A stretch of 64,000 nt of DNA. Source: Trypanosoma brucei (lineage: Eukaryota). Made by a program: the position numbers and the translations under genes. Below the pieces are notes generated by a model. That model saw only the letters and a program-made list of their open reading frames with translations. It was not told the DNA's origin and searched no databases. Shown here piece after piece: positions 31,378 through 54,769 of the stretch (position 1 is the stretch's first letter; each line of letters begins with the position of its first letter). The DNA lies in assembly GCA_000002445.1 (NCBI GenBank), contig CM000208.1, forward strand, positions 1,024,001 to 1,088,000, given 5' to 3'.

Positions 31378-32598
31378 TTACGCGGTGTACAGCTCAGGAT
31401 CGACTTCAGCAGGGATCGGTTTGATTTCCGTGTCGAGTTCCTGCTCAATGCGATAGACATTATGGCGGTCTTCATAAGTCACGAAGTTAATGGCGAGTCC
31501 CAAGTGACCGAAACGGCCAGATCGGCCAATGCGGTGAAGGTAAGTCTCCGCGTATTTGGGGAAGTCGAAGTTGATCACCACATTCACAGCCTGAATGTCG
31601 ATACCGCGAGTAATCAAATCAGAGCAAACCAGGTTACGGCAGTGGCCCTCACGAAAGTCGTGAAAGACACGGTTTCGATGTTGCTGCTGCATGCGCGCAT
31701 GAATGTAGTAGCAGCTATACCCAAGCTGAGTGATTTTCTTTGCCAGTAATTCCACACGGTTGACGCTATTGCAGAAAATAATAGATTGATTGATCTGCAG
31801 ACGGTTGAAAAGTGTGTTAAGGCAGTGAATTTTTTGTCGCTCTTCGACGAATGCGTAGTACTGTGTCACACCACGCAGCGTCAGCTCCTCCATGAGATTG
31901 ATTTCGTAAGGGTTGCGCAGATACTTGTCCGCAAAGTCCTTGACTGTGACGGGGAACGTAGCTGAAAAGAGCAACGACTGACGACCTTTGGGTAAGAAAC
32001 CGTAGAGATCCCTCATAAGACTCGTGAACTCCTGCGACAACAGCTTGTCAGCCTCGTCAAGAACAATAATACGGCAGTGATCGAGTTTCGCCGTCCCTTT
32101 ACTAGCGAGATCCACCGCACGCCCAGGTGTGGCCACAAGCACGTGCACCACACTCTGCAGGCGCAAAATATCATCACGGAGTGTTGTTCCACCAGTTGTG
32201 ACCATAACCTCCAACCCGGTGATGTGCTTGCCAAGCTCTTTTGTCACCTGAGCCGTCTGTAGCGCGAGTTCGCGAGTGGGAACCATGAGGAGCGCCTGGA
32301 TATGAGGCAACTGCGTGTCGACCTTCTCCAATACGGGAATGACGAAGGAAGCCGTTTTTCCCGTGCCGTTTTTGGCACGTGCTAGCACATCTTTTCCCTG
32401 CAGGGCCACAGGAATGGCCTCCTCCTGCACCGGACTGGGCCGTTCGAAGCCCTTCTCGAAGATACCCATCTGGAGCTCACGTCGGAGCCCATACTCCTCA
32501 AAGGTAACATTACGCCGAGACTCCACGTCTTCTGTCTTCTTTCGCACATCTTTAGTTGGCGCTTTCAAACCTTCCCTCCAATCATCATCGGTTACCAT
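31378..32598 (-). CDS. DHH1: ATP-dependent DEAD-box RNA helicase DHH1 (DDX6/Me31B/RCK family)
   Basis: Complete helicase motif set: Q-motif region [43 protein letters not shown] as [22 protein letters not shown]. The DDX6-specific C-terminus is present: [54 protein letters not shown]. The ORF-track start at 32808 is GTG. The first ATG is at rc of 32596-32598 ([21 protein letters not shown], cf. the yeast Dhh1 N-terminus). Confidence 0.9.
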
Positions 32599-36913: not shown

Positions 36914-37603
36914 TCACCATAGACGCCACCATATCGGATAATGACTGGATAAGTCGTATGGGAGTCCATGAGACTTCTGTAACTGTTGTGCACGCCTATA
37001 GAAGTGGCGGTGTGCCACATGACTTCGCTCCTCGTAAATGGTGTGACCAACACCCGCCCCAGCGGCACACCGGGCTAAAACAACGATATTTGCCGAGGCC
37101 GGGACCGGTACCTGATAAACGTTCTGAGAACCAAAGACCCGTTGGCACATCTGCACAAAGTCGGGATCGGATTTGGGAAGGTTAAACGCTGCAACGCCGA
37201 TCGAGGAGAGTGCCTCGCGGCACAACTGAAGAAAAATAAGGGACGACATGAAGGCGGGTGGATCGCTCCCGACAAAAAGATCCACAAAAAGCACGTCGTA
37301 ACACGTCGCCGGTTGTACTTGGTATCGGGACAGCGGCTTATGCTGGTTTCCGTTAGTGGGATAATCACCACCTTTGAAACTCACAGAAGTTCCAGAATGC
37401 GTGCGGCTAGAAACCAATTCATCAAAGGTACTATTACTCTCCCCAGTGCCAGTTGAAGATCCAACAACATCCTGAAGGAAGGCGGCACCGTCCTGAACAT
37501 GACAGGTGACACTCCCGCCTTGCATTTTCCTTCCCCATCCCATGTCTTCAACTGCAGCCCGAAAGCACTGTTGCTCAGCATCAACTAAGTCGCATAATGT
37601 CAT
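36914..37603 (-). CDS. C-terminal half of the same SAM-MTase/PABS-like protein (separate ORF in the -1 frame, ATGA overlap)
   Basis: Begins MTLCDLVDAEQQCFRAAVEDMGW. The acidic LVDAE sits ~20 aa after the upstream GxGxG, where the motif-II acidic residue of Rossmann MTases/spermidine synthases is expected. Later, YDVLFVDLF resembles the post-II strand. This frame is open for 33 codons upstream of its ATG. Confidence 0.45.
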   Translation of the reverse strand: MTLCDLVDAEQQCFRAAVEDMGWGRKMQGGSVTCHVQDGAAFLQDVVGSSTGTGESNSTFDELVSSRTHSGTSVSFKGGDYPTNGNQHKPLSRYQVQPATCYDVLFVDLFVGSDPPAFMSSLIFLQLCREALSSIGVAAFNLPKSDPDFVQMCQRVFGSQNVYQVPVPASANIVVLARCAAGAGVGHTIYEERSHVAHRHFYRRAQQLQKSHGLPYDLSSHYPIWWRLW

Positions 37604-38463
37604 GTGAGAAATGCTGCTGCGATGAAAGAAGGAGAGAACCCTCCACCAACACCGAGGACAGCGACCCGCAGCCGAGGTAGCGGAGAGGGAAGTAGCAGCA
37701 GAGCACTAAGCATGATGCGCAGATATGGCGCACCTAAATAACTGGCGTCAGCGAGGCAGTTCATTGAGGCCGGTGCCAAGGGGTCGCAGCGAACAAGCGA
37801 TTGTTGCGTGACTCGGTTGCTCCAGCGTCGCAACAAAGCGTCACTGTCATTTCGTACCTCATTATGTGACGTCTCAATAGTCATGGAGGTATATTTAACT
37901 GTACCCGGGGGCCAAGAGGAGGAAGCGATGAACATTGAAGAGCCCACACGATTACCGACGGTATCTTCAACAGCGTCATCATCATCACCGTTGAAGCCCT
38001 TGACGCTACGGGTGGAGACGTCACCGCGAGGTGCGTGTGCATCACCCACAACTTCCCTCACAAGATACAACTCGTTGACCTCTGATACTGAATCACTGTG
38101 GCCAGCAGTGGTGTATGTTTCATTTGAAAAACATGCAAACAGCTTTTTCATGACCCCTCCTCTATCACTGCGTCCACAATTTCCATTTTCGGCATCACTA
38201 CCGCGTGGCAGCAATGATTGTTCCCCTCGCCCCTTTTCCCGGACATAATGATTTGTTACAACAACATCATAACCCAAGAAGGTTTTGCAGGGGTACCGCG
38301 CATGCTCCTCCGAGTGCACAACATCCGCCTCATTAAAGAGTGGAATTTCTCTCTGCCGCAGCAGCGCAATTTCCCGGAAAATACCGATAGCAAATGTACC
38401 ACCAACGCTCGCTGCAATAAACCCCCATGCACGAGCTCCCAGTGGTTTAAAAAAATAGGGCAT
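37600..38463 (-). CDS. N-terminal half of a SAM-methyltransferase/spermidine-synthase-like (PABS-fold) protein; ends 17 aa after a GxGxG motif
   Basis: ATG at rc of 38461-38463. The C-terminal end ...LRVAVLGVGGGFSPSFIAAAFLT* places a Rossmann motif I (VLGVGGG) just before the stop. Stop TGA at 37602-37600 overlaps the next ORF's ATG. Confidence 0.45.
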   Translation of the reverse strand: MPYFFKPLGARAWGFIAASVGGTFAIGIFREIALLRQREIPLFNEADVVHSEEHARYPCKTFLGYDVVVTNHYVREKGRGEQSLLPRGSDAENGNCGRSDRGGVMKKLFACFSNETYTTAGHSDSVSEVNELYLVREVVGDAHAPRGDVSTRSVKGFNGDDDDAVEDTVGNRVGSSMFIASSSWPPGTVKYTSMTIETSHNEVRNDSDALLRRWSNRVTQQSLVRCDPLAPASMNCLADASYLGAPYLRIMLSALLLLPSPLPRLRVAVLGVGGGFSPSFIAAAFLT

Positions 38464-38895
38464 ATTGCCCTCCGGGAGATGTCGCCTAACTTTTCAAAAG
38501 AAAAAAATAGAGGAGCGGAAGTAAATATATGACGGCGCATGTGCAGAGGAAGTTGTACGTAATTCAACTGATGCGGATAACACAAGAGAAAAACATAGGT
38601 TAGTAACACCAACAGAAGCTTACAAACAACACGGCGATAGATGAAGAAGAGATGGAAGAAGGGAAGAAGGGAAGGAGGAAAAACAAAAACAAAAACGCCG
38701 CCGCACCGGCGTCAACAAAACCTAAATAAACAAGGGGGAAAACGTTTTAGCACCGACTGCACCAAATCCAAAACACATCAGTCGCCTTGTCCACTTCCAA
38801 CAAGGCCTTCCACCGAGTAAATCAATTTACGTTCCTTAGACTGAAATGCATGGTTTCTCTTCTCACTACTTTTGGTCACTGTTGCATTTAACCAA

Positions 38896-39942
38896 TTACA
38901 TGACTTTTTTACCCCTCTCTGATTCCTTTGTCGACGTTTCGTTCGGCTTCTCGTCATCCTTACGGACTCGCCACACGATGTTGTAATGCAGTTTTGAGAG
39001 CACCGCCATGGCTAAACGTAGCCAACCGTTAAGAAGAACTTGCAGAAGAAGCTCCAGCACATCAGTGGCCGGTTCCACACCCGCAACCATCCAACAAAGC
39101 AATTGCTTGTCAACACCCAAGCTTACGTCAAAACGATAGTGTTTGATGCTGTCGACAATTTGTTTTGCCATATCCAATGCGGTAACAGGTTCATCGCCAC
39201 CGAAGGAAGAAAGCGCAGTGCATTCCGGACTTTTTCGAATATTCTCCTGCTCGAAGCCGGGCGTGTAGACATCAGGTGGACTAATCACCTGGAACCGGAC
39301 GCCACGGCAGCTGTTTTCCATATCCATGCTGTGGGCAAAGGCCCGAATAGCAGCCTTTGATGCGGCATAAACGGAATACCCGGCAAGTGGGCAGCGGGCC
39401 GCAAGGCTGCTCACAAATACAACGCGTCCGGCACGTTGCTCAAGCATGGAGGGCAGAACCATGCGCAAAACATTTACACAACCGAAAAAATTGACATCCA
39501 TCATCCTTCGTGCCTCTGCAGGAGTAATGTCCACAAACCGAGCGGGAATAGAGAAACCTGCATTGCATACGAGAAGATCAAGACATTTCCCCCCAGCAGC
39601 AGTAACATCCTTCGACACTTTATCCATCGCTTGCTCCACTGAAACCTCATCGGCGACGTCCATAACGACGTATTCCACTTTCGTACCGGTTACTTTGGCC
39701 TCTACTCGAAGTGCCTCAACACCGGCCCTCAGCGACTGTTCATTTCTCGCGGCAATTATTACAACTCGTGCGCCCAGTTTGACGAGTTGCTTCGCCGTTT
39801 CCAAACCGATGCCCAAACTCCCACCAGTTACCAACGCACAGCAACCCTTTATGTGGAAGAAAGGCACTCGATGTACACTCCACCAGGCAGCAGCAAACAC
39901 CAGCGCAATCAGCAGCGCACACACAAGAAATATAACTCCCAT
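38896..39942 (-). CDS. KDSR: 3-ketodihydrosphingosine (3-dehydrosphinganine) reductase, SDR family
   Basis: N-terminal TM anchor then ALVTGGSLGIG (TGxxxGxG). The SDR fold is present with the YxxxK catalytic pair (YAASKAAIR). Close resemblance to KDSR/FVT1 over GRVVFVSSLAA, YSVYAASKAAIRAFAHSMDMEN, VISPPDVYTPGFEQEN, and to its C-terminal membrane-segment region. ATG at rc of 39940-39942. Confidence 0.8.
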   Translation of the reverse strand: MGVIFLVCALLIALVFAAAWWSVHRVPFFHIKGCCALVTGGSLGIGLETAKQLVKLGARVVIIAARNEQSLRAGVEALRVEAKVTGTKVEYVVMDVADEVSVEQAMDKVSKDVTAAGGKCLDLLVCNAGFSIPARFVDITPAEARRMMDVNFFGCVNVLRMVLPSMLEQRAGRVVFVSSLAARCPLAGYSVYAASKAAIRAFAHSMDMENSCRGVRFQVISPPDVYTPGFEQENIRKSPECTALSSFGGDEPVTALDMAKQIVDSIKHYRFDVSLGVDKQLLCWMVAGVEPATDVLELLLQVLLNGWLRLAMAVLSKLHYNIVWRVRKDDEKPNETSTKESERGKKVM

Positions 39943-42900
39943 GGCAGCGACTCAAATAGGCGATGATGCTGGAAGTGGGAAGTACTAGGAAAAAAGGAAA
40001 ATAAAATAAAATAAACTTGGAACAGATAATAAATGCAAGCCTCCTAATAACCTAAATGGAATGCGCAATAGTTTCTTCGTTGGGTTTTAACCCGGCTCCT
40101 AATCTATGGGTATACAAAGGAAGCATGGTAGAAGGCAAACGGTGCAGGGCACACTCGACAAGAGAAATATATATATTTCTTTAAAAAAAAGAAAAGAGGA
40201 GGTGCGTACGTCTCTCTGATCAGAAAATAAAGTCAAAGTCGTGAGAAGATGTGAAAGATGAGTGGGTAAACACCTCCATCACATTCGCTTCGATGAGGAA
40301 TAAACAAGGAAGCAGTAAGGGGTGCAAAAGAGGGAGCAAAAACTAAAAGGGAGAAAGTGATGAAAGAAATGATGGAAGTTGTCCAGAAACACTGGCTGAG
40401 CTACAAAACAGTGGTTTCCAGATGATTAAATCCGGCTCGTATTTATTTATTTTTTTTCCTTGGTTCCGTTTCGTTTCGTTTGGTTTTGTTCCCTTTTCTC
40501 TTTTCTTTCTCTTTTCTTTTCTTTTCTTCAATTTCCCTCCTTTACTCTCTCCCCCCCCCATACTCCTTCAACTCAGTTATTTCCTCTCTACCATTCTCTT
40601 CACTTACGTGCTAATGCCGAACTAAATACAGGCATACACTGAGAGAAGAAAAGGAACGGAGTAATGAAGGGGCCGTGAAAGAAAGGAAGAAATAAAAGAA
40701 AAATAAAAGAAAGAAAGAACAAAAACTTTGCCTTCGCTCCGAGTAAAACAAAAACGTAATGGCAAAAGTTATCGAACAAAAAAAAAAACTCCCCTACACT
40801 CCTCTACAGCAGTGGTGAATAAGATACGCACCACACAAACACACAAAAAAAAACCATATATACTCATTTGTGCGAATCGTTACATCATGCAAACACTTCC
40901 TCATTGTATTTTGTACTTGTGCATTTGCTGTTATTGTCTCTTGTTTTTTCCTCTCGTTTTTCTGCTTTTCTTTTTCTTTTCCTTTTGTTTTGTTTTGTTC
41001 CTTTTCTTTTTTTTTTATTTTCTCAACCTGTCACCTTTCTACCAGTCTGCAGTCATCGATGATGTTAACAATTTCTGTCTCCCCATTGCGTTGGTCATCT
41101 CCCACGCACAAGTAACATCACCAACACATTTTTTCAGATGTGTACACCATTGAGTTTCACGACAAATTTGAAAAAAAAAATTGGAAAGAAGTCAAACATA
41201 AATAAGGTCAGAACTTTTTTTAAAAAAAAAAGCTAAAAAGAATAAAAAGAAAAGTATGAAGGAAGCCACAATACATACAACCTCGCACAAAACACGCACG
41301 AAGAAGGGAAAAGAAATAATCAAAAAAAAAAGAAGGGCGCAGGCAAAAACAAACGTTGTCAAACCTCCAGAGGCAGGTAGGAAAATATACGGTGGTAGCC
41401 GAATTAACGAAACCAGTAAAACAATACTGGTCCTCAATTTTAAAAAAAAATTATAATGATAATGATAAAAACAGTAGATATAACATCAAAACCAAGAGAA
41501 AGGAAGAAAAAAAAAAGAAGAATAAACATGTAAAACTCTCATTACACAAAATACGGCGGGTCCCAAGAGTTCCTGCCCTAATAGCCTGCTTAATTGTAAC
41601 ACCACATTCATTCCTCTCATTTGTGTACGTGCATCTGCTTTCACTTAAGTCAGGCAATCGCTTCTCTGCCAGTGTGAAGATGATAATTAATAATAATAAA
41701 TAATAATAACTGGAATCAGTATTAGCACTATTGGTAATAGAATATGCGTGACATCATATTCCTATTTCACGCTAGCGCCCCAATATCTCATACTACTTTA
41801 TATAGTTGCCGCTACTAGTCACTACTAATTATTATCATTATTATTGTAGCACTTCACTCTTATACTGACTCTTTCCTCCTTTTTCCCGCTCTCTTTCTTC
41901 AATACGTCCCTCTAGCTTCTCCTCTTCTTTTTGGGTTTTCATTCATTTTTTTTATTTTTTCGTTTTGATGGGGATGATTTTAAACCTTTAAAACATACAC
42001 ACACACACACCACAAACTACTTGTTCGTCACCAACCATTTATATTTTTTTTTTCCAACCATTGGACAAATCACTATGCGCTGCTGCCATTATGCTAATAA
42101 ATGCTTTACCTTTTACTCATTGCTCAGTTTGTTCGCTTGTTTCTTTGTTTGTACTCATTTTACTTTTGTTGTTGTTATTTTATTTTCATTTTTTTTTTCC
42201 TCCACTCGAGGTCTACCTTCACTTTTCACCCTTTTTGTTAATCCCTAAACACAAATAAAAGGCAAGGAGAGCAGAAATCAACACCAAATATTTTCTTTTC
42301 AAAAAAAAAACAAAAAAGAAAGACCTCCTTTACTCCTACATAATATTTTCTCTTCACATTCATTTGGATCTCCTTTCATTTTCTCTTCTGTCACCGCACT
42401 TCCTTTTTTTCTTTTCCTTCTTCTAACATTGAATTGTTTCGATCCAGTTTTTTTTTTTTAAATATTTTCATGAGATAATACAACACGATATATCTCTTTT
42501 AATATACGAATATGAAATTGCTCACTTTTTGTGCTTTTCCCCATTCTATGCACTTCATTTTTATTACGCATTCATAAATGCACACACAAAAGTGTCGTAT
42601 TCCGCCCTCAGCGACACATGCGGTTACAACAGCGGCGGTCAAAAGGAAGAAAAAGTAAAAGTAAAGTAAAAAAAAAAAACGAAATCACACAAAAACAAAT
42701 GCCAGCATAAACCCCCGCAGATATAAATTTATACAAGTTAAGAAAAAAAAAAGAATGCAGACGACCTGGAAAGTTTAAAAAAAAAACATTCCTTCAGATG
42801 CGGTTCAGAACACGAGAGGAAAAGGAGAAAGGGAGGAATGAGACACACACAAACAGCAACAAAAGAGAAAATAATAGAGTAAAAGAATAAATTGAAAAGT

Positions 42901-44219
42901 CCTACTGCCGTCCACACAAAGTAATGTGGTGAAAGGATCCCTAAAAGCAAACAAGTGTTTTGTAAAGTCACCCATGGAAAAGTGATACAACAACAAGTGA
43001 AGGTAACAAACCTTCACAGCCCCAACACAACATGGAACTCAGGAACAGTAGAGCAAAAAAAAGAAAAAGAAAAAAGAAAAAAGAAAGAAAATGCCTTAAA
43101 GCGTCGGAACAAACAAACTAAAGTGTGGTATCACCTCACCGTTCAAGTTGTTGCTGTGGCCGTACGCTCCCAACATGTCTTTCCTTTCCCCTTCTCTCTA
43201 ATGTGATCCATCTATCCCCATTCTCCGTTCCACACACACACAAGAAAAAAAAGAAAAAAACGCCACCAAAAAAAAGCCTCCCACCCCTTCCCCCCCCCCC
43301 GCCTCCGGGAACTTCATCGCTAAATAATAAAATACCGCTGCGGACTCTACTGACAAAGTGGGGAACCGGCTGCTTAAGAACTGCACCATTTCTTGACCAT
43401 TTTTTTTTTCCTTTGAACTCTGTTGTTTTGTTTCCATCTCCTGGGATTGTCGAAAAAACGGGAGCGAATACATGGCATATGAAATATTGAAGCGAATATA
43501 TTTATATATTTTATATATGGCAAGAGCATTGAGGTAATGTAAGAAGGTGATTAATTAGAAGGAAAAAGAAAACAAAGAAACAAACACACGTGTACGAAGC
43601 ACCACAGTCGCGCCTTCCTATAGCCCCAGATCCCAGTCCCCACCCAATTCACACAGTTCCTTCTTATCGTACTCTACATTAAATGAAATAAATAAACAAA
43701 TAAAACGAACCGCATACATCCCTTTGTCCTTTTTGAGGCCGTTTATTTAAATCCATACCCCCGAGTACCTCCAAAACAGGGTGTCCTCATATCCCCCTCA
43801 CAGCAAGCGAACATATATAAAGATAGATGAAGGTAAATACATTATTGATATAGCGCTTACGTAACTCGGGACGGCACTTTTGTCCAAATGCACCTCCCTC
43901 TCGTATGGTGTCGGAGATGGAAAGTGTTTGAGAAGGAGAGAAGAAAAAAAAAAGAAAAAAAAGATCCCGCATTACATTTAAGGATTTTAATGTGCTACTA
44001 CCACCGCGTTCACCAGGGAGAGGAAGGGAAAACGGTGTAAAATCGTACAACAAGGGGAGGAATACACAAAAACGGTACAAATCAAACAAATGGGAGACGG
44101 AAGGGAGTGGGAAGTCTAAGGGGATAAATTATATATATATATATATACCCTCGCAACCACGCCATAACTAATACGGAAAGAAAAAAGGAGGAAGAGCGCA
44201 ACGCATGCTGCTATTATTA

Positions 44220-45893
44220 TTACTCCTCGCCCTGCGGGGGCACGGTGCTGGGCAAAAACTGTATGTTGGTTTCCTTCTTTATTTGATCCATAACGTCCAA
44301 CGCGAACTGCAAATCAGCGCGGGTGTGAGCAGCAGAAACACAGAAACGAATGCGGCACCCCAGTAGTGGAGTAGCGGGGTATCCAACAATCACAATAGCA
44401 AGACCACGGCGCATGCATTTCCTCCACACGGCAATTGCTCTCCCAAGATGGTAAAGCATTACGGGAACGACGGGGGAGGCGTCATTACCAAGGACAGAGA
44501 AACCACGATCGATCAAGCCCTGGCGGAAAAATCGTGAATTTTCCATCAGTTGCTGTATGTGCTTGGGTCCAATGTCGGTGCCATCATTACCGTTTAGGAC
44601 GTCAAGCACAGAGAGAGCCTGCTGAGCACAGGGAGGAGAAAGCGTATCGCAGTGAAGCGCTAGAGAGCTGTGAGTTCGGATGTGGTCAATTACGCTCTGG
44701 TCCCCAGCAAGATAACCGCCAATAGCCCCGAAGCTCTTGGTGAAAGTCCCCATGAGAATATCCACGTCACGCGGGTCCACACCGAAGTGCTCCGTTACGC
44801 CACGCCCCGTACGACCAGTTGCACCAATAGAGTGAGCCTCATCGACAAAGAGCAGGGCACCGTACTTTTTCTTAAGTTCAACAACACGAGGAAGATTAAC
44901 AAACTCTCCCTCCATACTATAGACACCCTCAACGACGATGACAATGCGGGTCCATGGCACGTATGCGCCCTTTGGATTCTGCCCGAGCACAACCGCCTCA
45001 CGGAGCACCTTCTCCAGGCTGTTCATGTCAGCATTCTTGAATACCTTGGCGCGGGCACCAGATAACCGTATGCCGTTAACGAGCGAAGAGTGGTTCAAGC
45101 TATCGCTGACCACAAGTGTATCCTCACCAAACAATGCAGGAAGACCACGAAAGTTTGTGCCGAAGCCCATCCCACACACAACAGCGTCCTCCTTCTTTAA
45201 AAAGTCTGCTATGGCACGCTCAAGTTTAGAAACTGGACCATGCTGACCAGCGTGTTGGGCGGCGCTGCATGAAGCAAGACCATAGCGATCTAAGCTGTTA
45301 AGCACCTCACGAGTAATATGGGGTATATCATCCGCAAACCCAAGGTAGTTGTATGACGAAAGGTTAACGCATGGTTTGATATTTCCAGTGAAGGAAAAAG
45401 TTCTATTGGAGTCCGTCGAAACCCGCTCCATCACACCAATCACACGAGACGGACGTGAGTCAATCGCATGGTTGAAGCAGTCACGCGCACGGCGGTAGAA
45501 ATGATTCTGCCAGAAATATTCGAGGAAAGTAAGCAGAGATGCATATCCCTCACGCTGCTTCCTTTTTGCGCCAAATAACTTCCGGCGAAGCTCGGCAATG
45601 CATCCAAAAGTGAATAAAAGTAAAAACGTGAAGTATGTCATTACCACAGAAATAAATGGAATGCTTTTGTGCTCCTCCTCCTGGTGCGTCACCCGCTTCG
45701 GCTGAGTATGCGTCCCCACACTTTCCTTTTGACATATCGTGTCCGTTGCACCATTTGCTGCAAAACTCGCCCGAACCGAACCTTGTTTATTGTACGCCTC
45801 GTCACAAGACTCGGCTTCAGTTACTGCCTTGTTCGCAACAACGGCACCCCGAGGTGCGTCTAAGAAATTCTCCGCCTCCACGTAAGTAGGCAT
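44220..45893 (-). CDS. SPT2: Serine palmitoyltransferase subunit 2 (LCB2), class-II alpha-oxoamine synthase aminotransferase
   Basis: The PLP-lysine motif GTFTKSFGAIGGY is diagnostic of LCB2. Also present: DEAHSIGATGRTGRG, a TM segment (FISVVMTYFTFLLLF) upstream of the catalytic domain, and the NYLGF motif. ATG at rc of 45891-45893. Confidence 0.9.
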   Translation of the reverse strand: MPTYVEAENFLDAPRGAVVANKAVTEAESCDEAYNKQGSVRASFAANGATDTICQKESVGTHTQPKRVTHQEEEHKSIPFISVVMTYFTFLLLFTFGCIAELRRKLFGAKRKQREGYASLLTFLEYFWQNHFYRRARDCFNHAIDSRPSRVIGVMERVSTDSNRTFSFTGNIKPCVNLSSYNYLGFADDIPHITREVLNSLDRYGLASCSAAQHAGQHGPVSKLERAIADFLKKEDAVVCGMGFGTNFRGLPALFGEDTLVVSDSLNHSSLVNGIRLSGARAKVFKNADMNSLEKVLREAVVLGQNPKGAYVPWTRIVIVVEGVYSMEGEFVNLPRVVELKKKYGALLFVDEAHSIGATGRTGRGVTEHFGVDPRDVDILMGTFTKSFGAIGGYLAGDQSVIDHIRTHSSLALHCDTLSPPCAQQALSVLDVLNGNDGTDIGPKHIQQLMENSRFFRQGLIDRGFSVLGNDASPVVPVMLYHLGRAIAVWRKCMRRGLAIVIVGYPATPLLGCRIRFCVSAAHTRADLQFALDVMDQIKKETNIQFLPSTVPPQGEE

Positions 45894-46511
45894 TACTGAT
45901 CCTTACCCCTAACAAAGAGCGATAGCTAAAACTGAATTATACTCGTCAGTTCCTATCGATAGGTGTCTCGTAATATGGCGGACAATAGCGTCTCTCTTGT
46001 AGCTCCTCTTTATATTATCTCTGTGGTTCTTCCTGCTTCTTAGACAATGTTTTTTTGACCGCGTGGAAAATTTTTTAGTAGAAAAAAGGAGTTGGAAAAC
46101 AAATAGACAACAGCTGCTACGAAGAAAGAAAACTGCGGTGGGCACGGGGGGTGCAAAAAAAATGTGGGAGCATCATCAAGCCTAGACGCAAACTGTGAAA
46201 GGAGAAATCAGAGGCGCCAACCACATGTACGGTTGCGCGCGTACGCACCTGGTAACTGCAACCATCACCCGGGACCCGAAATCCACGGCATGATTAGACC
46301 CGTGCGCGCCCCAGCAGGTATCCTGAACTATACGAAGGCGGTTGGTAAAAGCTGGAAGAAATAAAGGGAGTACCACCTCGAAGTCACCCCTTCCGCTTTT
46401 CAGAACTGTAAAGGCTCCTTCCGCCCTTGACTGTAATAAACAATGTATCTCCTACTTCCAAGACTAAATTACGTGTGCGTCCTCTTCCTTATAACAGTCG
46501 ACATGTGCTCA

Positions 46512-47618
46512 CTAGGCCGCCTTCGGTCGTTTTGAAGCCTTTGACGGGTGGGCCGCAGATGTCTCGGTGAAAGTTATCCCTGGTTGCCAGCGCGAGTGTA
46601 GGCGATCGTAGGACCATCGAAGGAACATGTCATCTATGCAACCGCAGTATCCCTTCGGCAACCCTGACCAACAATGGCACAATGCGGCCTTCTCTGTATC
46701 TCCCTCTTTCATGTCTACAATCTTTGCTTCGTCGTTCCCGGGTAAACCAACCTGGTGGCCAATGCTCAGTTTAGGACGGGGGTTTAGCGCGAGGTTTACT
46801 GGAGACAAATCAGGGCACATCGTGACGCCCTGCAGCACAGGAGCGGTATTGCCAAGGCAACGTGGAGCTCCCTTTTCTACCAGCCACTGGATCACTTCCC
46901 TGTCAGCAAGTGCCAAAGCAGCATGCAGGGGCGTGCGACCCCAGCGGTCGTACACAATGAGGCTTCCACCTGCGCTATGTAGTAAATTCATCATAGCAAT
47001 ATTACCTGTTATGATGGCAACAAACATGGGGCTGTAGCCATGCCGCATCTGATCCAGAGTAGCAAAGGGTTCGCTGAGGAAGCTCATTTCATTTGGGTTC
47101 GCCCCCCACTCAAGACACCGTTCGGCGAGGGCAATATTCCCTGTCAAGACCCCCAAGAGCAGAAATGTAGCACCACGATAAAGTGAATCACCTCGTTTAT
47201 CGCATAACCCAGGCAGCTGATCCTCCAAGAACTTGCCGATAGACTTCACCGGTAGGTTAATGTCGTTACCGCGTGCACCCGAGGGATTATTCGAATTGGT
47301 ATTAGTACTAGTAGGGCCGTCGGTTTTGTTGTAGATGTTGGATAGTTTGGCGAGGTCCTCTGCGATTGCTCCCTCATGTGCCCCGCCCAGTACAACCTTC
47401 CCTTTACGAATGACTTGAAAAGACTCCCATGATATGGCAGGGGCAGTTCTGAATGAACGCAGAACGCAAGGACCCGAATACTCGCATGCGGCGCCAGTGG
47501 AAACAATGTTACTGTCCATGGAGCTGTGTACCCCTTCTGTTCTGTACCACTTACACCCCTGGTAGTCGTTTGATCCACGTAACTCTTCACTGGGAAATGG
47601 TTCACCAACTTGTTGCAT
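46512..47618 (-). CDS. Ankyrin-repeat protein
   Basis: At least 3 ankyrin repeats: GANPNEMS...YSPMFVAIITGNIAMMNLLHSAGGSL, GRTPLHAALALADREVIQWLVEKGAP. The ORF-track start at 47660 is GTG. The first ATG is at rc of 47616-47618 (MQQVGEPF...). Confidence 0.6.
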   Translation of the reverse strand: MQQVGEPFPSEELRGSNDYQGCKWYRTEGVHSSMDSNIVSTGAACEYSGPCVLRSFRTAPAISWESFQVIRKGKVVLGGAHEGAIAEDLAKLSNIYNKTDGPTSTNTNSNNPSGARGNDINLPVKSIGKFLEDQLPGLCDKRGDSLYRGATFLLLGVLTGNIALAERCLEWGANPNEMSFLSEPFATLDQMRHGYSPMFVAIITGNIAMMNLLHSAGGSLIVYDRWGRTPLHAALALADREVIQWLVEKGAPRCLGNTAPVLQGVTMCPDLSPVNLALNPRPKLSIGHQVGLPGNDEAKIVDMKEGDTEKAALCHCWSGLPKGYCGCIDDMFLRWSYDRLHSRWQPGITFTETSAAHPSKASKRPKAA

Positions 47619-49685: not shown

Positions 49686-52600
49686 TCACATGCGTGCGGA
49701 CTGAATAACCGCCTCTGAGAGGTTGGCGAACGACACTCTAGAATGCGCCATGCACTTAAGTAGTGGCGACGGCTGCAAGTGCGCCCCGTGCCACACCGCC
49801 AACTCTTCCATTTTTTGCAACATCAAACCAGCACCCATGGCGTCAGCCAGTGTTAGCGCTCCGCCAGTGGTTTCACTGAACCCCAATGTCGCTATAGTCA
49901 GCGCGTTTGCATCTGCCGCAGTAAGCAGATGCCCTGACAGCAGTAACTCGCAGCATTCATTCACAACAACAGAGAGCAAACGGTCAGACAGCTCTGTATC
50001 TGTAAGATGACGACGTAAGTATTGCTTTTGAACCACCGTATTTAGTGCAACTGAAGAACCATCCGCTCCATATGTGTAGAAACCACCACGTCTTGTTCGA
50101 ATACCACCGAATCCGTCATTGCTCATACTACGAAGCACCTGGTATCCGATAGAAGGGAGCCAATCGTGTATCAGCGGATTGCGGTGGTCGTTCATGTGAC
50201 TCGTTTCCTCAATCAAACGCGAAACGGTAGAGGTACCCAAATGATCAGCGAGTCGGAATGGTCCACCCAGAAGCCGGAGCACACCTGTAGAGACACGTTC
50301 AACTTTCTCGATGTCGCAATGCATCGCAATCCGACACGCCTCTGTCACGAAAGCCGCGATGAGGCGGCCGCTACAGGAATGCCGGCAAACAACATATGGC
50401 CGATATTCTTGCTGCAAGTAAGCCAGTGCTGCGGAAAGTGTACTTGCCCGCAGGTGTTCAGGGCACCCTTCCCGACCAAAGAGACGAACCTCCTGTAGAT
50501 CTCGAAGGGGAGATACCGCATACGCTGAAACGGGTGATATAGTTGCAACGCAGTTAAATTCAGGTATGAGCGGGCGCGCAACATATTCATCGCCAATTAA
50601 TACCACGTTTGCCTTTGTTAGAACACCGGATTGGTCCTTCACCAAGCTCTTTATCGCTTCAATGTTCGATTTCCCGCAATCAAGCAAGACAGTTACTTGG
50701 TTGCAGCTCTCGGCAGACAACGCCCTTACTTTCCTCGGCCACAGCTCCGCTTCATCGGCCTTAAACCTCAAATACCCTCCATCCGGTGGGGACGAAAGCA
50801 CCCTACGTTGAATCTCACACCCATGCCCATAAATGCGAGCTGCGTTAAGTGCAGAGGGGGAAAAAAGAAATTCACTATAAATACCCTCGCTACGCAGTGT
50901 CCCTGTTTCCACTGCTGCGGACGCGTTCCCACTCTCTCCAACGTTGTGAGTACATCCCCCGCTCGCCATTGCAGCCAGACAATACCGACGCCAAGCCTGT
51001 GTAATGGGATTTGAGTACACCTCGACGCTGCTTCCCCCTGTGGAACGAGTAAGGAAAAATCTGCGTAGAACAAAATCCCGCAGCGCAGGTCGGTTTAAAA
51101 GGGCGAGCAAGGCGTTTTCCAGACGTAACAGCAAAGAGGTAGGTGGTGACGCTTTGCTGTGGTCGACGTAACTGAGGCGAAGGGCCGTGAGCCCCTCACG
51201 AGTATCGCGTGCGTGGCGGGCAACACCAGCATCCAGCAATGTCGCAGCAGTGAATCTGTACTGTTGCTGTGATGCAGCAAGAGTGCGCTGCGCACCGAAG
51301 TAGCGGCACAGCTGCCGCACAGCATGCGAAGTAGGGAAATCACCCAGCATGCACGACGGAAATCCAAAAGTAGTGTGGGTTGCGTCAAGGAACACGCGGT
51401 AATGACAAGCAAGGAACAACTCCGCCGCAAAATCATCAAGAGAACCTCCGTTTACGATCGCCACGAAATTAAGAGGAGGCGTCTTGGCCATGCGCAGAAA
51501 TAGCCGTTCCTTCTCCCGTATTAACTCAATACGCTCGGAGCACGAAAGCTCCAATGGACTATGCTTTGGCTGAAAGAATGCAATACCAGGCAGTGAGGTG
51601 AGCACTACATGGGTGACCGGCCCACTCATCGTAACGGAGTGATTTTCAATGGCCGTTATAGCCTCATTAAGCGCACCTACAGCCGAGATGGTACTTACCA
51701 GTGGCTCCCAAAGGGTGATGGTAACAATATGCTGCGATGACTCATCAAAGGACAACTTCAACAGCGCTGAACCACTTTGTGCAGTAAACGCTCCACAAGT
51801 CCACGGAGCCAACGGAGGGTGCTCAGTGATACAACTCGAGACAGTTGAAGACAAGTTGCTCCTTCCATCCGATTCTTTGGGTTGCTGCTCTTCCATTCCA
51901 TACAGTGAGGTTTCCAAGCTGGCGGCTGTCACAGTGTTGTTGATGCTCAATTCTGATAACTCCTTTTCTCCGACAACGTCATGGGTCACCCCCGTGTGCT
52001 TTTGCATAAATGCCCCTCCACTAAAGTCGTCAGGCACCATATGGTTGTCAATCAATGTCGCCTCCTTTTCGGACAACTCTTTAAGACCGCCTTTATCCGC
52101 AAGTTCCACAATTGGCTCAGATTTTTCGCAGTGTTCAAAGTTTAAACTGAGGCCTTCGATTTCTCGACCCACAATGACCGGAGAACGCACAAGGGGTCTC
52201 GTTGCTCGCGCCCGCTCAATCTCCTCATCCAGAGAGAGGGCAGAACTTTTCGCCCAAACAGTGTCTTGGGGGTCACCACTAGCGGTCGGTGGTGCGATAG
52301 TGGTTCGTGTGCCATTCCGAGAACCACTCACCGGCTTCGATGAAGCTACGAAGTCGCTTGGCATCGAAGGAGCCGCAGGTGGTGCCAACGGTGCTTTTGG
52401 TGGGTCCGGAGCTCTAGGTGCCGCCTTCGGAGCGAAAGGCACCTGCCGTTTCGACGGTGATGGATTATGTGACGCGAAAACTATTTTGATGTCTTGTATA
52501 TCCTCCACAACGTTTGAAAGGGACATGTCCCTATTTCCTTTATATGTATCTCCCCGGCTACGTATTTTTTCTTTCTTCGAGTAACCCACCTCTCTCCTTG

Positions 52601-53237
52601 AATTCCGGCCCTCCTTAGCACCCCCACTTCTCTGCAAACGGCCCCTTTCCTCATCCAACCCAGATGCACGATCATCTCCCGTAAAACGACCACGTGATCT
52701 CCTTGTAGAGGTCATAAAATTCACAGGAGCTGCTTTCTGTAGTTCCGGTGCTGCGGGAGCTGCTTTCTGTAGTTCCGGTGCTGCGGGAGCTGCTTTCTGT
52801 AGTTCCGGTGCTGCGGGAGCTGCTTTCTGTAGTTCCGGTGCTGCGGGAGCTGCTTTCTGTAGTTCCGGTGCTGCGGGAGCTGCTTTCTGTAGTTCCGGTG
52901 CTGCGGGAGCTGCTTTCTGTAGTTCCGGTGCTGCGGGAGCTGCTTTCTGTAGTTCCGGTGCTGCGGGAGCTGCTTTCTGTAGTTCCGGTGCTGCGGGAGC
53001 TGCTTTCTGTAGTTCCGGTGCTGCAGGAGCTGCTTTCTGTAGTTCCGGTGCTGCGGGAGCTGCTTTCTGTAGTTCCGGTGCTGCGGGAGCTGCTTTCTGT
53101 AGTTCCGGTGCTGCAGGAGCTGCTTTCTTGAGTGGTTCAGTTTGGTATCTTCTCACAGCATTCCCTGTTACCGCAAATAGGCAGCCGGTTGGGGGACCGC
53201 TGAGCGCCGAAGCGACTGTAGGTGCAAATCGCCGCAT
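49686..53237 (-). CDS. Repeat-containing trifunctional-enzyme-alpha-like protein: 13 x AAPELQKAAP repeats + Pro/Ala-rich linker + enoyl-CoA hydratase-like + 3-hydroxyacyl-CoA dehydrogenase-like (HADH_N + 2 x HADH_C) domains
   Basis: The ORF-track start at 53285 is TTG. The first ATG is at rc of 53235-53237 (MRRFAPTVASALSG, presequence-like). The ECH-like segment is NFVAIVNGGSLDDFAAELFLACHYRVFLDATHTTFGFPSCMLGDFP; the second catalytic Glu position is not Glu. HADH-like segments are PYVVCRHSCSGRLIAAFVTEACRIAMHCDIEKVERV, GPFRLADHLGTSTV, RRGGFYTYG and ADANALTIATLGFSETTGGALTLADAMGAGLM. The Gly-rich NAD motif is degenerate (VTVLLDCGKSN). Confidence 0.7.
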   Translation of the reverse strand: MRRFAPTVASALSGPPTGCLFAVTGNAVRRYQTEPLKKAAPAAPELQKAAPAAPELQKAAPAAPELQKAAPAAPELQKAAPAAPELQKAAPAAPELQKAAPAAPELQKAAPAAPELQKAAPAAPELQKAAPAAPELQKAAPAAPELQKAAPAAPELQKAAPAAPELQKAAPVNFMTSTRRSRGRFTGDDRASGLDEERGRLQRSGGAKEGRNSRREVGYSKKEKIRSRGDTYKGNRDMSLSNVVEDIQDIKIVFASHNPSPSKRQVPFAPKAAPRAPDPPKAPLAPPAAPSMPSDFVASSKPVSGSRNGTRTTIAPPTASGDPQDTVWAKSSALSLDEEIERARATRPLVRSPVIVGREIEGLSLNFEHCEKSEPIVELADKGGLKELSEKEATLIDNHMVPDDFSGGAFMQKHTGVTHDVVGEKELSELSINNTVTAASLETSLYGMEEQQPKESDGRSNLSSTVSSCITEHPPLAPWTCGAFTAQSGSALLKLSFDESSQHIVTITLWEPLVSTISAVGALNEAITAIENHSVTMSGPVTHVVLTSLPGIAFFQPKHSPLELSCSERIELIREKERLFLRMAKTPPLNFVAIVNGGSLDDFAAELFLACHYRVFLDATHTTFGFPSCMLGDFPTSHAVRQLCRYFGAQRTLAASQQQYRFTAATLLDAGVARHARDTREGLTALRLSYVDHSKASPPTSLLLRLENALLALLNRPALRDFVLRRFFLTRSTGGSSVEVYSNPITQAWRRYCLAAMASGGCTHNVGESGNASAAVETGTLRSEGIYSEFLFSPSALNAARIYGHGCEIQRRVLSSPPDGGYLRFKADEAELWPRKVRALSAESCNQVTVLLDCGKSNIEAIKSLVKDQSGVLTKANVVLIGDEYVARPLIPEFNCVATISPVSAYAVSPLRDLQEVRLFGREGCPEHLRASTLSAALAYLQQEYRPYVVCRHSCSGRLIAAFVTEACRIAMHCDIEKVERVSTGVLRLLGGPFRLADHLGTSTVSRLIEETSHMNDHRNPLIHDWLPSIGYQVLRSMSNDGFGGIRTRRGGFYTYGADGSSVALNTVVQKQYLRRHLTDTELSDRLLSVVVNECCELLLSGHLLTAADANALTIATLGFSETTGGALTLADAMGAGLMLQKMEELAVWHGAHLQPSPLLKCMAHSRVSFANLSEAVIQSARM
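52726..53131 (-). repeat. Tandem array, 30-bp unit x ~13.5, in-frame coding (AAPELQKAAP)n
   Basis: Plus-strand unit gagctgctttctgtagttccggtgctgcgg repeated head-to-tail. Only two units differ (cgggag vs caggag), synonymous in the minus-strand frame. Confidence 0.9.
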
Positions 53238-54769
53238 TAGTGACGACAAACAATGTTGACAGCGGTGGATGTACTTATTCGGCAATACGTTATATTTACA
53301 CTCGTTGTGACAACCGGTTACTTATCCAACTTTCCCCTCTGCCGCCTTTGCAGGTGTGCAATTTGTTCTCCCCCTTCGCTTCGCACCAATGATTTCGTGA
53401 TAGGTTTGGTGTGCAGATTAGTTTTCTATGGCTCCAGTGACACTCTCCCTTGAAAAGTTAATATATTTTGGATTAACATACGCGAAGAAATAATTGTGAG
53501 AGGAGGAGGAGGAGTGCCACACCACCACGTAACAGCCGCAAGAAGAAAAAGTTGTGCCAGCACCTTTAGCGCATTCAGTCGTGGTCCCATGATATTTTAT
53601 CCCAATCTTTGGCCCTCTTTAGTATTCGGAAAATAATAACGGCACCCTACCGTTCCAGATAGCTTCCTCATACATGGAACTCACCTCGATACTCCACCTC
53701 CTAGAGTGGCAGTGGAGTATCACTTACACGGTCACCGTCCAAGGTCCCTCCAGCACCACCGAATGAGGAAATAACTTCAAACAGCATATCGACTGTGGGG
53801 AGCGTAAACAGCAACGGCAAGTTACAACAATCACTGACAGTAATAAAAGGGAATGGACGACATACGCCTCAATCGTATACTTTGAGCGCAACTTTTGAGC
53901 CTGCAGGCGCCATGAGCATGATTGCCTCGTAACATAACCACACGCAAACCGGTACCAGCGGGAACAACCACACGACCTGGGGTGGCAGGCCGTATACCTT
54001 TTCCCGATGTGCTCCCACGTCTACCGGATCAAGTGCACGCAGAACGAAAAACGTCGCAACGGTAACAAACAATACCCAAAGAGGAAGCGCGATAGGTCGC
54101 AAAAACATGCTTCTGTCTCTACAGTCGGCTTTCACTTGTGTAAGTGTAGCGGCTGTGGAGTAAACGTTCCGACTCCGTTTTTGTATATGACGTCGCAGTA
54201 AATGGTGCGTAATTAACGGCGGTAAACGAATGTTTTCTTTTTTCTTTTACCGTCTATACCTTACTGGCATGTAGGCGTCCAATCTTTATCGACACTGATA
54301 TCTCTCCTACCTTTCTAAGTGAGTTAGATAATATATTTGAAAGAGAAGAGAAAACAAATAAACTCACCGTCCCCCGGTACGATCAGTTTCAGGGTTGTAC
54401 CAATAGGCTGCGTTTTGTTCGGTCACTGTAAGTCATTTGATGTTGCCATTCTTTCACGTTTATCCTTCACCCACACCCATTTTCGGCCAAACAATCCAAA
54501 CTTTTAGGCAAAGTTAACTGGCATTAAGACACCATGACCAAAGGGGAATCAAAAACTAACTCCTCGATACAAGCCGTGACATTTCTTCCGACTCGCGCCG
54601 ATGACGGCAAGGGCGTGCCGGTTAACTGACTTGAGCAGCTTCGAGCTGGCTTCGAGGGCCCGATCACAGAGACTCGGGACGGCGCATAACCGTCCTACCA
54701 ACGTAATGCAACATTTGCATACTTCCACCTGGTCACATCCTGCGCGCTTTCAGCACCCTGCCTGGGCAC

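What the first reader, a model, noticed from the sequence alone, without database searches (positions are those of the whole stretch)
38896..45893. First two enzymes of de novo sphingolipid synthesis are adjacent, separated by the longest ORF-free gap in the window
Serine palmitoyltransferase LCB2 (44220-45893) and 3-ketodihydrosphingosine reductase (38896-39942) are consecutive genes in the same transcription unit. Functional clustering is not expected in polycistronic eukaryotes, so the adjacency of sequential pathway steps is notable. The 4.2 kb between them (39943-44219) has no ORF over 85 aa on the coding strand and is rich in poly-T/poly-A and CT tracts. This suggests an unusually long 3'UTR or 5'UTR that could carry post-transcriptional control of sphingolipid synthesis, or an unannotated ncRNA.
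Basis: partly seen in the sequence, partly recalled or inferred. Interest (0 to 1): 0.55.

Follow-up and report, generated by a model that had tools for sequence, protein, structure and literature searches.

The report
Adjacent trypanosome sphingolipid genes, long spacer
Two already-annotated Trypanosoma brucei genes for the first two steps of sphingolipid synthesis sit side by side, an arrangement that dates back to free-living relatives, and the 4.3 kb between them looks like ordinary fast-evolving untranslated sequence, not a hidden gene or RNA.

Summary
The window is T. brucei TREU927 chromosome 10 (window coordinate + 1,024,000 = v4 coordinate). ORF 44220-45893(-) is SPT2/LCB2 (Tb927.10.4050). 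ORF 38896-39942(-) is the KDSR-family reductase (Tb927.10.4040). They are consecutive genes on one strand, and the 4,277 bp between them is the longest ORF-free interval in the window.

The adjacency is visible in public annotation and was mentioned for Leishmania major. It is conserved in T. vivax, T. cruzi, Leishmania, an unidentified trypanosomatid, Bodo saltans and two bodonid-like contigs, as a three-gene block (ankyrin protein, SPT2, KDSR). Published Bodo comparisons report 2-5-gene collinear patches as typical, so this conservation does not show selection for clustering.

The spacer gave no Rfam or tRNA hit, no cross-species conservation at DNA or protein level, and no repeats. It varies among T. 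brucei strains like other intergenic DNA. Published procyclic RNA-seq lists no independent transcript there. The best reading is a long, T. brucei-expanded SPT2 3'UTR plus a short KDSR 5'UTR, but the SPT2 poly(A) site was not found. The spacer is the longest in its local block in every trypanosomatid examined. The two mRNAs appear not to be co-regulated. This is ordinary and largely known.

The parts
44220..45893 (-). SPT2/LCB2, the catalytic subunit of serine palmitoyltransferase (Tb927.10.4050, old ID Tb10.70.3220)
   Evidence: Pfam Aminotran_1_2, E = 1e-44. Human SPTLC2 E = 9e-135, against SPTLC1 at 1e-44. 100% identical to the T. equiperdum SPT. PLP-lysine motif TFTKSFG at residues 383-389 and one N-terminal hydrophobic segment at 76-102. 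The 1674-nt CDS matches the Tb927.10.4050 row in the Mugo & Clayton tables. Named as Tb10.70.3220 in Kolev Table S6.
39943..44219 (-). 4,277-bp non-coding spacer. Inferred to be mostly SPT2 3'UTR, with the last ~40-50 nt forming the KDSR 5'UTR
   Evidence: No Rfam hit at E<=1, and no tRNA. No nucleotide or six-frame similarity to the syntenic spacers of T. vivax, T. cruzi, Leishmania, L009 or Bodo. No repeats shared with the rest of the window. 1.9% variable sites and 8 indel events per kb among three T. brucei assemblies, like other intergenic regions and unlike SPT2/KDSR at 0.3-0.5% with no indels. No novel transcript listed on chr10 between 964 kb and 1,082 kb in Kolev 2010 Table S7. Role as a 3'UTR is inferred, not mapped.
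39984..40015 (-). Predicted polypyrimidine tract (39987-40015) and first AG, taken as the KDSR trans-splice acceptor
   Evidence: A 29-nt tract, 76% T, is immediately followed by AG. The predicted splice site is ~42 nt upstream of the ATG (sequence). Prediction only. The rule for tract and AG follows Kolev 2010.
38896..39942 (-). 3-ketosphinganine (3-dehydrosphinganine) reductase, a KDSR-family SDR (Tb927.10.4040, old ID Tb10.70.3240)
   Evidence: Pfam adh_short, E = 3e-49. 99% identical to the T. b. gambiense protein. Full-length hits at E of about 1e-40 to proteins named 3-dehydrosphinganine reductase or KDSR-like. TGGSLGIG, YAASK and an N-terminal hydrophobic anchor at 1-26. The 1047-nt CDS matches the row labelled '3-Ketosphinganine reductase'.
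38602..38895 (-). KDSR 3'UTR (294 nt), experimentally mapped
   Evidence: Kolev 2010 Table S13 gives the Tb10.70.3240 major poly(A) site at 1,062,602 and a 3'UTR of 294 nt. That puts the stop at 1,062,896, which is window 38896.
46512..47618 (-). Ankyrin-repeat protein gene, the upstream member of the conserved three-gene block Ank-SPT2-KDSR
   Evidence: Pfam Ank repeats. The orthologue lies immediately upstream of SPT2 in all trypanosomatid loci and in Bodo saltans, L017 and L018. Bodo versus window tblastn gives E = 5e-43.
43198..43473 (-). 91-aa ATG ORF inside the spacer, judged spurious
   Evidence: Its reading frame is broken by indels in the T. b. gambiense assembly and altered in the other T. 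brucei assembly. No six-frame conservation in other species.

Best explanation
This is the annotated locus Tb927.10.4050 / Tb927.10.4040 on T. brucei chromosome 10. SPT2 makes 3-ketodihydrosphingosine together with SPT1. The next gene downstream in the same Pol II polycistron encodes the KDSR-family reductase that is expected to reduce that product.

The adjacency is ancestral. It was already present in the common ancestor of eubodonids and trypanosomatids, as part of an Ank-SPT2-KDSR block. It has most likely persisted through the low rate of rearrangement inside polycistrons, not through selection for an operon-like unit.

The 4.3-kb spacer is non-coding and evolves freely in sequence. It is most likely transcribed as part of the polycistron and kept mainly as a long SPT2 3'UTR of about 4.1 kb. 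On this reading, SPT2 polyadenylation occurs roughly 100-180 nt upstream of the KDSR trans-splice site, which is predicted about 42 nt before the KDSR ATG.

Each mRNA is then controlled separately after transcription. The long, T. brucei-expanded 3'UTR is the likely platform for SPT2-specific control.

Shown: gene identities, adjacency, depth of synteny, non-coding and unconserved nature of the spacer, absence of a listed independent transcript in procyclic RNA-seq, and the KDSR 3'UTR.

Inferred: that the spacer is SPT2 3'UTR, the position of the KDSR splice site, and any regulatory role.
For: - Identity and genome position.
- Synteny in T. brucei (x3), T. vivax, T. cruzi, Leishmania and L009, with the whole neighbourhood collinear.
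- Ank-SPT2-KDSR kept in Bodo saltans, L018 and L017 while the flanks differ.
- Collinear patches of 2-5 genes are typical between Bodo and trypanosomatids.
- The spacer is non-coding and unconserved.
- No novel transcript on chr10 between 964 and 1,082 kb in Kolev 2010 Table S7.
- T. brucei 3'UTRs range up to ~6 kb, and poly(A) sites lie a median 142 nt upstream of the next splice site.
- A 2.2-kb 3'UTR is experimentally mapped for DHH1 in this same window.
- The SPT2-KDSR spacer is the longest in its local block in all six trypanosomatid loci, at 2.1-8.5 times the local median.
- Normalised read counts of the two genes run in opposite directions across eight samples (SPT2 38 to 4, KDSR 44 to 188).
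Against: - The SPT2 poly(A) site was not found in any table I could read. It is absent from Kolev Table S13, so the 3'UTR length is unmeasured.
- The spacer holds 27 sense-strand polypyrimidine tracts of at least 18 nt, each followed by an AG. Any of these could drive internal processing, a shorter SPT2 3'UTR and separate non-coding transcripts.
- The Kolev list covers procyclic forms only. Later lncRNA catalogues could not be queried.
- I could not read the column headings of the expression table, so 'opposite regulation' is a pattern across unnamed samples.
- KDSR activity has not, to my knowledge, been shown biochemically for any kinetoplastid protein.
Confidence: 0.6

Rival explanations
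1. The spacer carries one or more independent, T. brucei-specific long non-coding RNAs, each trans-spliced and polyadenylated, between a short SPT2 3'UTR and the KDSR gene.
For: There are 27 strong polypyrimidine tract plus AG combinations on the sense strand. T. brucei is reported to have many intergenic lncRNAs (abstracts of PMC9200285 and PMC10048164). The SPT2 poly(A) site is absent from Kolev Table S13. T. b. gambiense annotators placed a 104-aa 'gene' in the spacer.
Against: No novel transcript is listed in this interval for procyclic cells. No Rfam family matches. There is no sequence conservation with even T. vivax. Strain-level divergence and indel rate match neutral intergenic DNA. 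The one nanopore lncRNA supplement I could search does not name the flanking genes.
Confidence: 0.22
2. The adjacency is kept by selection as a functional two-gene unit. Keeping KDSR immediately downstream of SPT2 would tie their copy number, or tie SPT2 3'-end formation to KDSR 5'-end formation, so that the toxic intermediate 3-ketodihydrosphingosine never outruns its reductase.
For: The adjacency survives in Bodo saltans and two bodonid-like contigs whose flanks are otherwise rearranged. In L017 a duplication produced SPT2-KDSR-SPT2, keeping the reductase between two SPT2 copies. 3-KDS toxicity and dependence on KDSR are reported for cancer cells (abstract of PMC9552870). Trans-splicing and upstream polyadenylation are coupled in trypanosomes.
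Against: Three-gene collinear patches are the norm between Bodo and trypanosomatids, and the unrelated Ank gene is retained equally well. Steady-state mRNA levels of the two genes diverge. SPT1, the obligate partner subunit, has a chromosome 4 gene ID (Tb927.4.1020). Two other polycistron-style contigs, L014 and L016, have SPT2 followed by unrelated genes. One adjacent pathway pair found after scanning a genome is weak statistical evidence.
Confidence: 0.12
3. The spacer is mainly a long or alternative KDSR 5'UTR, produced from distal splice acceptors and carrying upstream ORFs that control KDSR translation.
For: Several tract-plus-AG candidates lie 236-700 nt upstream of the KDSR ATG. T. brucei 5'UTRs can reach about 2.5 kb, and splice-site heterogeneity is common.
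Against: The median 5'UTR is 130 nt and the reported maximum of about 2.5 kb is well below 4.2 kb. The strongest tract sits directly in front of the ATG. No alternative-5'UTR entry for Tb10.70.3240 appeared in the Kolev tables I could search.
Confidence: 0.06

Closest known systems
Leishmania major LmjF.35.0320 (LCB2) / LmjF.35.0330 (3-dehydrosphinganine reductase)
   Same: These are orthologous genes in the same order and strand, with consecutive gene IDs. Both were named as sphingolipid-pathway genes in PMC9539739. A Leishmania locus fetched here (assembly GCA_040363505.1, species name not shown) has the same neighbourhood and a 3.8-kb spacer, also the longest in its block.
   Different: The spacer sequence is unrelated and GC-richer (0.52 against about 0.37). 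LCB2 is dispensable in L. major promastigotes but reported essential in T. brucei procyclics (text of PMC5964470 and PMC9539739).
Long regulatory 3'UTRs of T. brucei mRNAs, for example DHH1 in this same window
   Same: Non-coding, AT-rich and low-complexity sequence downstream of a CDS inside a polycistron. It contains spurious ORFs. The length falls within the published range of 10 to ~6,000 nt.
   Different: The DHH1 3'UTR of 2,169 nt is mapped experimentally. The SPT2 3'UTR is only inferred and would sit in the extreme upper tail at about 4.1 kb.
Bacterial sphingolipid operons and fungal SPT-like/KDSR-like pairs in toxin clusters (recalled from my own knowledge, not tested here)
   Same: The condensing enzyme and the ketoreductase of a sphingoid-base pathway are encoded side by side.
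   Different: Those are co-regulated operons or clusters. Here each gene yields its own trans-spliced mRNA, mRNA levels diverge, and SPT2 is a typical eukaryotic LCB2 matching human SPTLC2 at E = 9e-135, not a bacterial import.
Human KDSR/FVT1 and fungal TSC10
   Same: SDR fold with TGxxxGxG and YxxxK, and a membrane-anchored protein of about 330-350 aa. Full-length matches at E of about 1e-40 to proteins named KDSR. Cryptococcus TSC10 (8jat) matches at E = 4e-20.
   Different: Against solved structures, generic SDRs score slightly better than TSC10. Assignment rests on full-length best hits and annotation, not on kinetoplastid biochemistry.

Membership tests
Serine palmitoyltransferase subunit 2 (LCB2/SPTLC2), alpha-oxoamine synthase family | PLP-dependent class I/II aminotransferase fold | tested here: met
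   Pfam PF00155, E = 1e-44, residues 174-533.
Serine palmitoyltransferase subunit 2 (LCB2/SPTLC2), alpha-oxoamine synthase family | Catalytic PLP-binding lysine in the motif T[FL][GTS]K[SAG][FLV]G, which is present in LCB2 and absent in LCB1 | tested here: met
   TFTKSFG at residues 383-389. The motif is quoted from PMC5964470.
Serine palmitoyltransferase subunit 2 (LCB2/SPTLC2), alpha-oxoamine synthase family | Closer to LCB2 than to LCB1 or other alpha-oxoamine synthases | tested here: met
   Human SPTLC2 9e-135, Arabidopsis LCB2a 3e-129 and yeast SPT2 5e-117, against KBL 5e-57 and SPTLC1 1e-44.
Serine palmitoyltransferase subunit 2 (LCB2/SPTLC2), alpha-oxoamine synthase family | Enzyme activity and requirement for sphingolipid synthesis | not testable with these tools
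   The literature reports that reducing SPT expression is lethal in T. brucei procyclics (Fridberg 2008, as cited in PMC5964470).
3-ketodihydrosphingosine reductase (KDSR/FVT1/TSC10), classical SDR | Rossmann NAD(P)H motif TGxxxGxG and catalytic YxxxK | tested here: met
   VTGGSLGIG at 38-46 and YAASK at 192-196. Pfam adh_short, E = 3e-49. These features are shared by all classical SDRs.
3-ketodihydrosphingosine reductase (KDSR/FVT1/TSC10), classical SDR | Closest relatives outside the clade are KDSRs, aligned over the full length | tested here: met
   An exhaustive HMMER search gives non-kinetoplastid hits of about 320-345 aa covering residues ~5-330 at E of 1e-40 to 1e-47. Of the 10 looked up, every one carrying a functional name is a 3-dehydrosphinganine reductase (JGI, two proteins) or 3-ketodihydrosphingosine reductase-like (Schistocerca). 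This is annotation-level evidence.
3-ketodihydrosphingosine reductase (KDSR/FVT1/TSC10), classical SDR | Best match among solved structures is a KDSR | tested here: not met
   TSC10 (8jat) scores E = 4e-20 and ranks 7th. Generic SDRs score up to 6e-25. Few KDSR structures exist, so this is weak negative evidence.
3-ketodihydrosphingosine reductase (KDSR/FVT1/TSC10), classical SDR | Membrane anchoring (ER) | tested here: inconclusive
   Hydrophobic N-terminus at 1-26 (Kyte-Doolittle 2.9) and a weaker segment at 298-316. No dedicated transmembrane predictor was run.
3-ketodihydrosphingosine reductase (KDSR/FVT1/TSC10), classical SDR | Reduction of 3-KDS to sphinganine | not testable with these tools
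   No kinetoplastid biochemical study turned up in the searches.
Operon-like, co-regulated functional gene cluster | Pathway neighbours adjacent and co-transcribed | tested here: met
   Consecutive genes on the same strand in a unidirectional cluster. Co-transcription follows from the established polycistronic model.
Operon-like, co-regulated functional gene cluster | Adjacency conserved beyond what background synteny explains | tested here: inconclusive
   Kept in Bodo, L017 and L018 with rearranged flanks. However, 2-5-gene patches are typical and the unrelated Ank gene is kept too. Absent in L014 and L016.
Operon-like, co-regulated functional gene cluster | Coordinated expression of the members | tested here: not met
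   Normalised counts across eight samples: SPT2 38, 22, 17, 12, 15, 9, 11, 4; KDSR 44, 56, 96, 90, 143, 138, 119, 188. Sample labels were not read.
Known structured ncRNA (Rfam families, tRNA, conserved snoRNA) | Match to a covariance model or a tRNA model | tested here: not met
   0 hits at E<=1 in 38000-46500. 0 hits at gathering score in the whole window. No tRNA.
Known structured ncRNA (Rfam families, tRNA, conserved snoRNA) | Sequence block conserved in the syntenic spacers of other species | tested here: not met
   blastn (word size 7), nhmmer and tblastx against five other spacers give only low-complexity matches with E >= 0.003.
Long 3'UTR of the upstream gene | No coding potential and no independent transcript in the interval | tested here: met
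   for coding potential. Kolev Table S7 has no chr10 novel transcript between 964 and 1,082 kb (procyclic forms only).
Long 3'UTR of the upstream gene | Mapped poly(A) site of SPT2 close to the KDSR splice acceptor | not tested
   SPT2 is absent from the poly(A) table I could read. Other datasets were not held.

The most novel reading that the evidence does not exclude
The SPT2-KDSR pair is a selected two-gene unit. In kinetoplastids, which cannot regulate transcription gene by gene, keeping the reductase immediately downstream of the condensing enzyme would lock their DNA dosage together. It would also couple SPT2 3'-end formation to KDSR trans-splicing across a long, lineage-expanded spacer, protecting the cell from the toxic intermediate 3-ketodihydrosphingosine. 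The consistently oversized spacer would then be the control element of this unit, possibly through a T. brucei-specific non-coding transcript.
Probability: 0.1. Interest if true: 0.5.

Novelty: already known. Interest (0 to 1): 0.2.

Why it matters
If the ordinary reading is right, this matters little. It confirms existing annotation and adds one more example of a very long trypanosome 3'UTR.

Two modest points may be useful to specialists:
- The SPT2-KDSR adjacency, together with an ankyrin-repeat gene, predates parasitism, because it is present in Bodo saltans and bodonid-like contigs.
- The spacer between the two genes is the largest in its neighbourhood in every trypanosomatid examined, even though its sequence is completely unconserved. 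This fits SPT2, the rate-limiting and stage-regulated step, being controlled through an unusually long 3'UTR.

That idea is directly testable with reporter constructs. Sphingolipid synthesis has been discussed as a drug target in these parasites.

Tried and rejected
1. Hidden ncRNA. Rfam at E<=1 on the region, Rfam at gathering score on the whole window, and ARAGORN all returned nothing.

2. Hidden conserved gene or small ORF. tblastx, blastn and nhmmer against the syntenic spacers of five other species returned nothing. The only ATG ORF above 85 aa is frameshifted between strains.

3. Transposon or repeat remnant. There is no similarity between the spacer and the rest of the window, and no internal repeats. 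I had no T. brucei repeat library, so degenerate RIME/ingi/SIDER relics are not formally excluded.

4. Regulatory motif enrichment. UA(U)6, UGUA, AUUUA, the PUF9 motif and CAUAGAA show nothing beyond about 2 SD, and UA(U)6 is absent.

5. Finding the SPT2 poly(A) site and KDSR splice site in published tables. Only the KDSR 3'UTR, SPT2 abundance and the novel-transcript list could be recovered. The Siegel 2010, Nilsson 2010, Guegan 2022 and nanopore supplements were not held or had no entry.

6. Deeper outgroups. L014 and L016 lack the adjacency, but their organisms are unidentified. L019 was too short to tell.

7. A literature precedent for pathway clustering in trypanosomatids (the pyrimidine genes) could not be retrieved and remains my own recollection.
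Full report
**What the window is.** All large ORFs lie on the minus strand. The 348-aa ORF is 99% identical to a T. brucei gambiense protein, and the 557-aa ORF is 100% identical to the T. equiperdum serine palmitoyltransferase.

Supplementary tables of Kolev et al. 2010 (PMC2936537) fix the position exactly:
- Tb10.70.3440 lies at 1,027,135-1,029,810(-), which equals ORF 3135-5810.
- Tb10.70.3240 has its major poly(A) site at 1,062,602 and a 3'UTR of 294 nt. Its stop codon is therefore at 1,062,896, which is window 38896.
- Tb10.70.3290 (DHH1) has a 3'UTR of 2,169 nt, which puts its stop at window 31378.

The window is therefore T. brucei TREU927 chromosome 10, v4 coordinates 1,024,001-1,088,000. 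Tables from Mugo & Clayton 2017 list Tb927.10.4040 as '3-Ketosphinganine reductase' with a CDS of 1047 nt, and Tb927.10.4050 as 'serine palmitoyltransferase, putative' with a CDS of 1674 nt. Both lengths match the two ORFs. Kolev Table S6 names Tb10.70.3220 as serine palmitoyltransferase.

**The observation.** The spacer is the longest between ORFs of at least 150 aa. The next longest is 3,505 bp and the median is 870 bp. That second-longest interval actually contains two RPL30 genes and a published novel transcript. GC falls to 0.32-0.40 in the spacer, and low-complexity T, A and CT tracts abound.

Two small corrections apply:
- A 91-aa ATG ORF exists on the coding strand at 43198-43473. It is frameshifted among T. 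brucei strains and is not a gene.
- The interval downstream of DHH1 (27447-31377) is almost as long, if the 187-aa ORF inside the mapped DHH1 3'UTR is discounted.

**Gene identities.**
- SPT2 has the aminotransferase fold. It matches human SPTLC2 at E = 9e-135, against 1e-44 for SPTLC1. It carries the LCB2-specific PLP-lysine motif TFTKSFG (motif from PMC5964470).
- The reductase is a classical SDR with TGGSLGIG, YAASK and an N-terminal hydrophobic anchor.
- Against solved structures, generic SDRs slightly outscore TSC10.
- An exhaustive HMMER search finds full-length relatives of 320-345 aa at E of about 1e-40. Of the 10 I looked up, those carrying a functional name are 3-dehydrosphinganine or 3-ketodihydrosphingosine reductases.
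- I accept the KDSR assignment at annotation level. I found no kinetoplastid biochemistry for it.

**Synteny.** SPT2 followed by KDSR on the same strand occurs in two further T. brucei assemblies, T. vivax, T. cruzi, a Leishmania species and an unidentified trypanosomatid. In these, the whole neighbourhood of up to nine genes is collinear, so the pair is simply part of general trypanosomatid synteny.

The outgroups are more informative. In Bodo saltans the order Ank-SPT2-KDSR is kept, with the KDSR orthologue about 44-46% identical. Of the other eight genes called in that 21-kb locus, seven have no counterpart in the 64-kb window and one, a 76-aa product, has only a weak match (E = 2e-6). The same triad occurs in two bodonid-like contigs, L018 and L017.

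Two other dense, unidirectional contigs, L014 and L016, carry SPT2 followed by a CFAP46-like gene and an LRR gene. Their organisms are unknown.

Jackson et al. 2008 reported that Bodo and trypanosomatid collinearity typically persists over '2 or 3 genes' or '3-5 genes'. A retained three-gene patch that includes an unrelated ankyrin gene is therefore what background synteny predicts.

The adjacency is also already visible in gene numbering. It was mentioned for L. major LmjF.35.0320/0330 in PMC9539739.

**The spacer.**
- It gave no Rfam hit at E<=1 and no tRNA.
- It showed no significant nucleotide or six-frame similarity to the syntenic spacers of T. vivax, T. cruzi, Leishmania, L009 or Bodo.
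- It shares no repeats with the rest of the window.
- It showed no clear motif enrichment.
- Among three T. brucei assemblies it has 1.9% variable sites and 8 indel events per kb. That is like neighbouring intergenic regions and unlike SPT2 and KDSR, which have 0.3-0.5% and no indels.
- Kolev's list of novel procyclic transcripts jumps from 964 kb to 1,082 kb on chromosome 10, so no independent transcript was called in the spacer.
- A strong 29-nt polypyrimidine tract followed by AG sits 42 nt before the KDSR ATG.

Poly(A) sites lie a median 142 nt upstream of the next splice site, and 3'UTRs reach ~6 kb. The simplest model is therefore an SPT2 3'UTR of about 4.1 kb. This is inferred. The SPT2 poly(A) site is not in the table I could read. 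The spacer also holds 27 candidate tracts that could support internal processing.

**Two comparative points.** First, the SPT2-KDSR spacer is the longest in its local block in all six trypanosomatid loci examined, at 2.1-8.5 times the local median. It is above the local median in the bodonid contigs too. This holds even though the sequence is entirely unconserved. T. brucei has the largest version.

Second, in one RNA-seq table the normalised counts of the two neighbours move in opposite directions across eight samples: SPT2 from 38 to 4, KDSR from 44 to 188. I could not read the sample labels. Both points fit gene-specific post-transcriptional control, with SPT2 carrying the large regulatory 3'UTR. 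They argue against an operon-like co-regulated unit.

**Verdict.** However, the genes and their adjacency are already annotated. The conservation is explained by background microsynteny, and no ncRNA or hidden gene is detectable. The spacer is best read as a long, unconstrained, probably regulatory 3'UTR.

The residual novel possibility is selection for dosage or processing coupling of SPT2 and KDSR, or a T. brucei-specific lncRNA. It is not excluded but has little positive support.

Noticed in passing
window 36914-38463 (-): The gene downstream of KDSR is a single 517-aa ORF in two other T. brucei assemblies (L001, L002). In this window it is split into 287-aa and 229-aa ORFs by a +1 insertion at 37623 and a 5-bp deletion at 37588. 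Kolev 2010 lists the downstream piece (Tb10.70.3260) among ORFs without a distinct transcript. This is either a reference-strain pseudogene or an assembly error.
   Followed up: partly
window 29209-31377 (-), ORF 29247-29810: The DHH1 helicase gene (31378-32598) has an experimentally mapped 2,169-nt 3'UTR. That UTR swallows the annotated 187-aa 'hypothetical protein' ORF Tb10.70.3310, which has only sub-threshold Pfam matches. The ORF is probably spurious, which would make this a second spacer of about 3.9 kb in the window.
   Followed up: partly
window 57276-57593 and 57904-58221 (-); 58372-59196 (-): Two identical 105-aa RPL30 genes in tandem, plus the published novel transcript Tb10.NT.46, lie inside the window's second-longest 'ORF-free' interval. 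An ORF-length cutoff of 150 aa hides them.
   Followed up: partly
L017 3367-7954: An environmental bodonid-like scaffold has SPT2 - KDSR - SPT2. The two SPT2 copies are 88% identical in protein and 93% identical over about 1.3 kb of DNA. This is either a recent local duplication that keeps the reductase between two condensing-enzyme genes, or a metagenome assembly artefact.
   Followed up: partly
window 53878-54048 (-); L012 1633-1863: A 76-aa Bodo saltans gene product matches the translated T. brucei spacer between ORFs 49686-53285 and 54770-56899, with 33% identity over 57 aa and E = 2e-6. This may be a small conserved protein gene missed by ORF-length filters.
   Followed up: no
window 38896-39942 and 44220-45893: In supplementary tables of Mugo & Clayton 2017, SPT2 counts fall about 10-fold while KDSR counts rise about 4-fold across the same eight samples. 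SPT1 (Tb927.4.1020) falls about 3-fold. The sample identities were not read.
   Followed up: partly
window 46512-47618 (-): An ankyrin-repeat protein of unknown function lies immediately upstream of SPT2 in every kinetoplastid locus that keeps the SPT2-KDSR pair, including Bodo saltans. Whether it has any link to sphingolipid synthesis is unknown.
   Followed up: no
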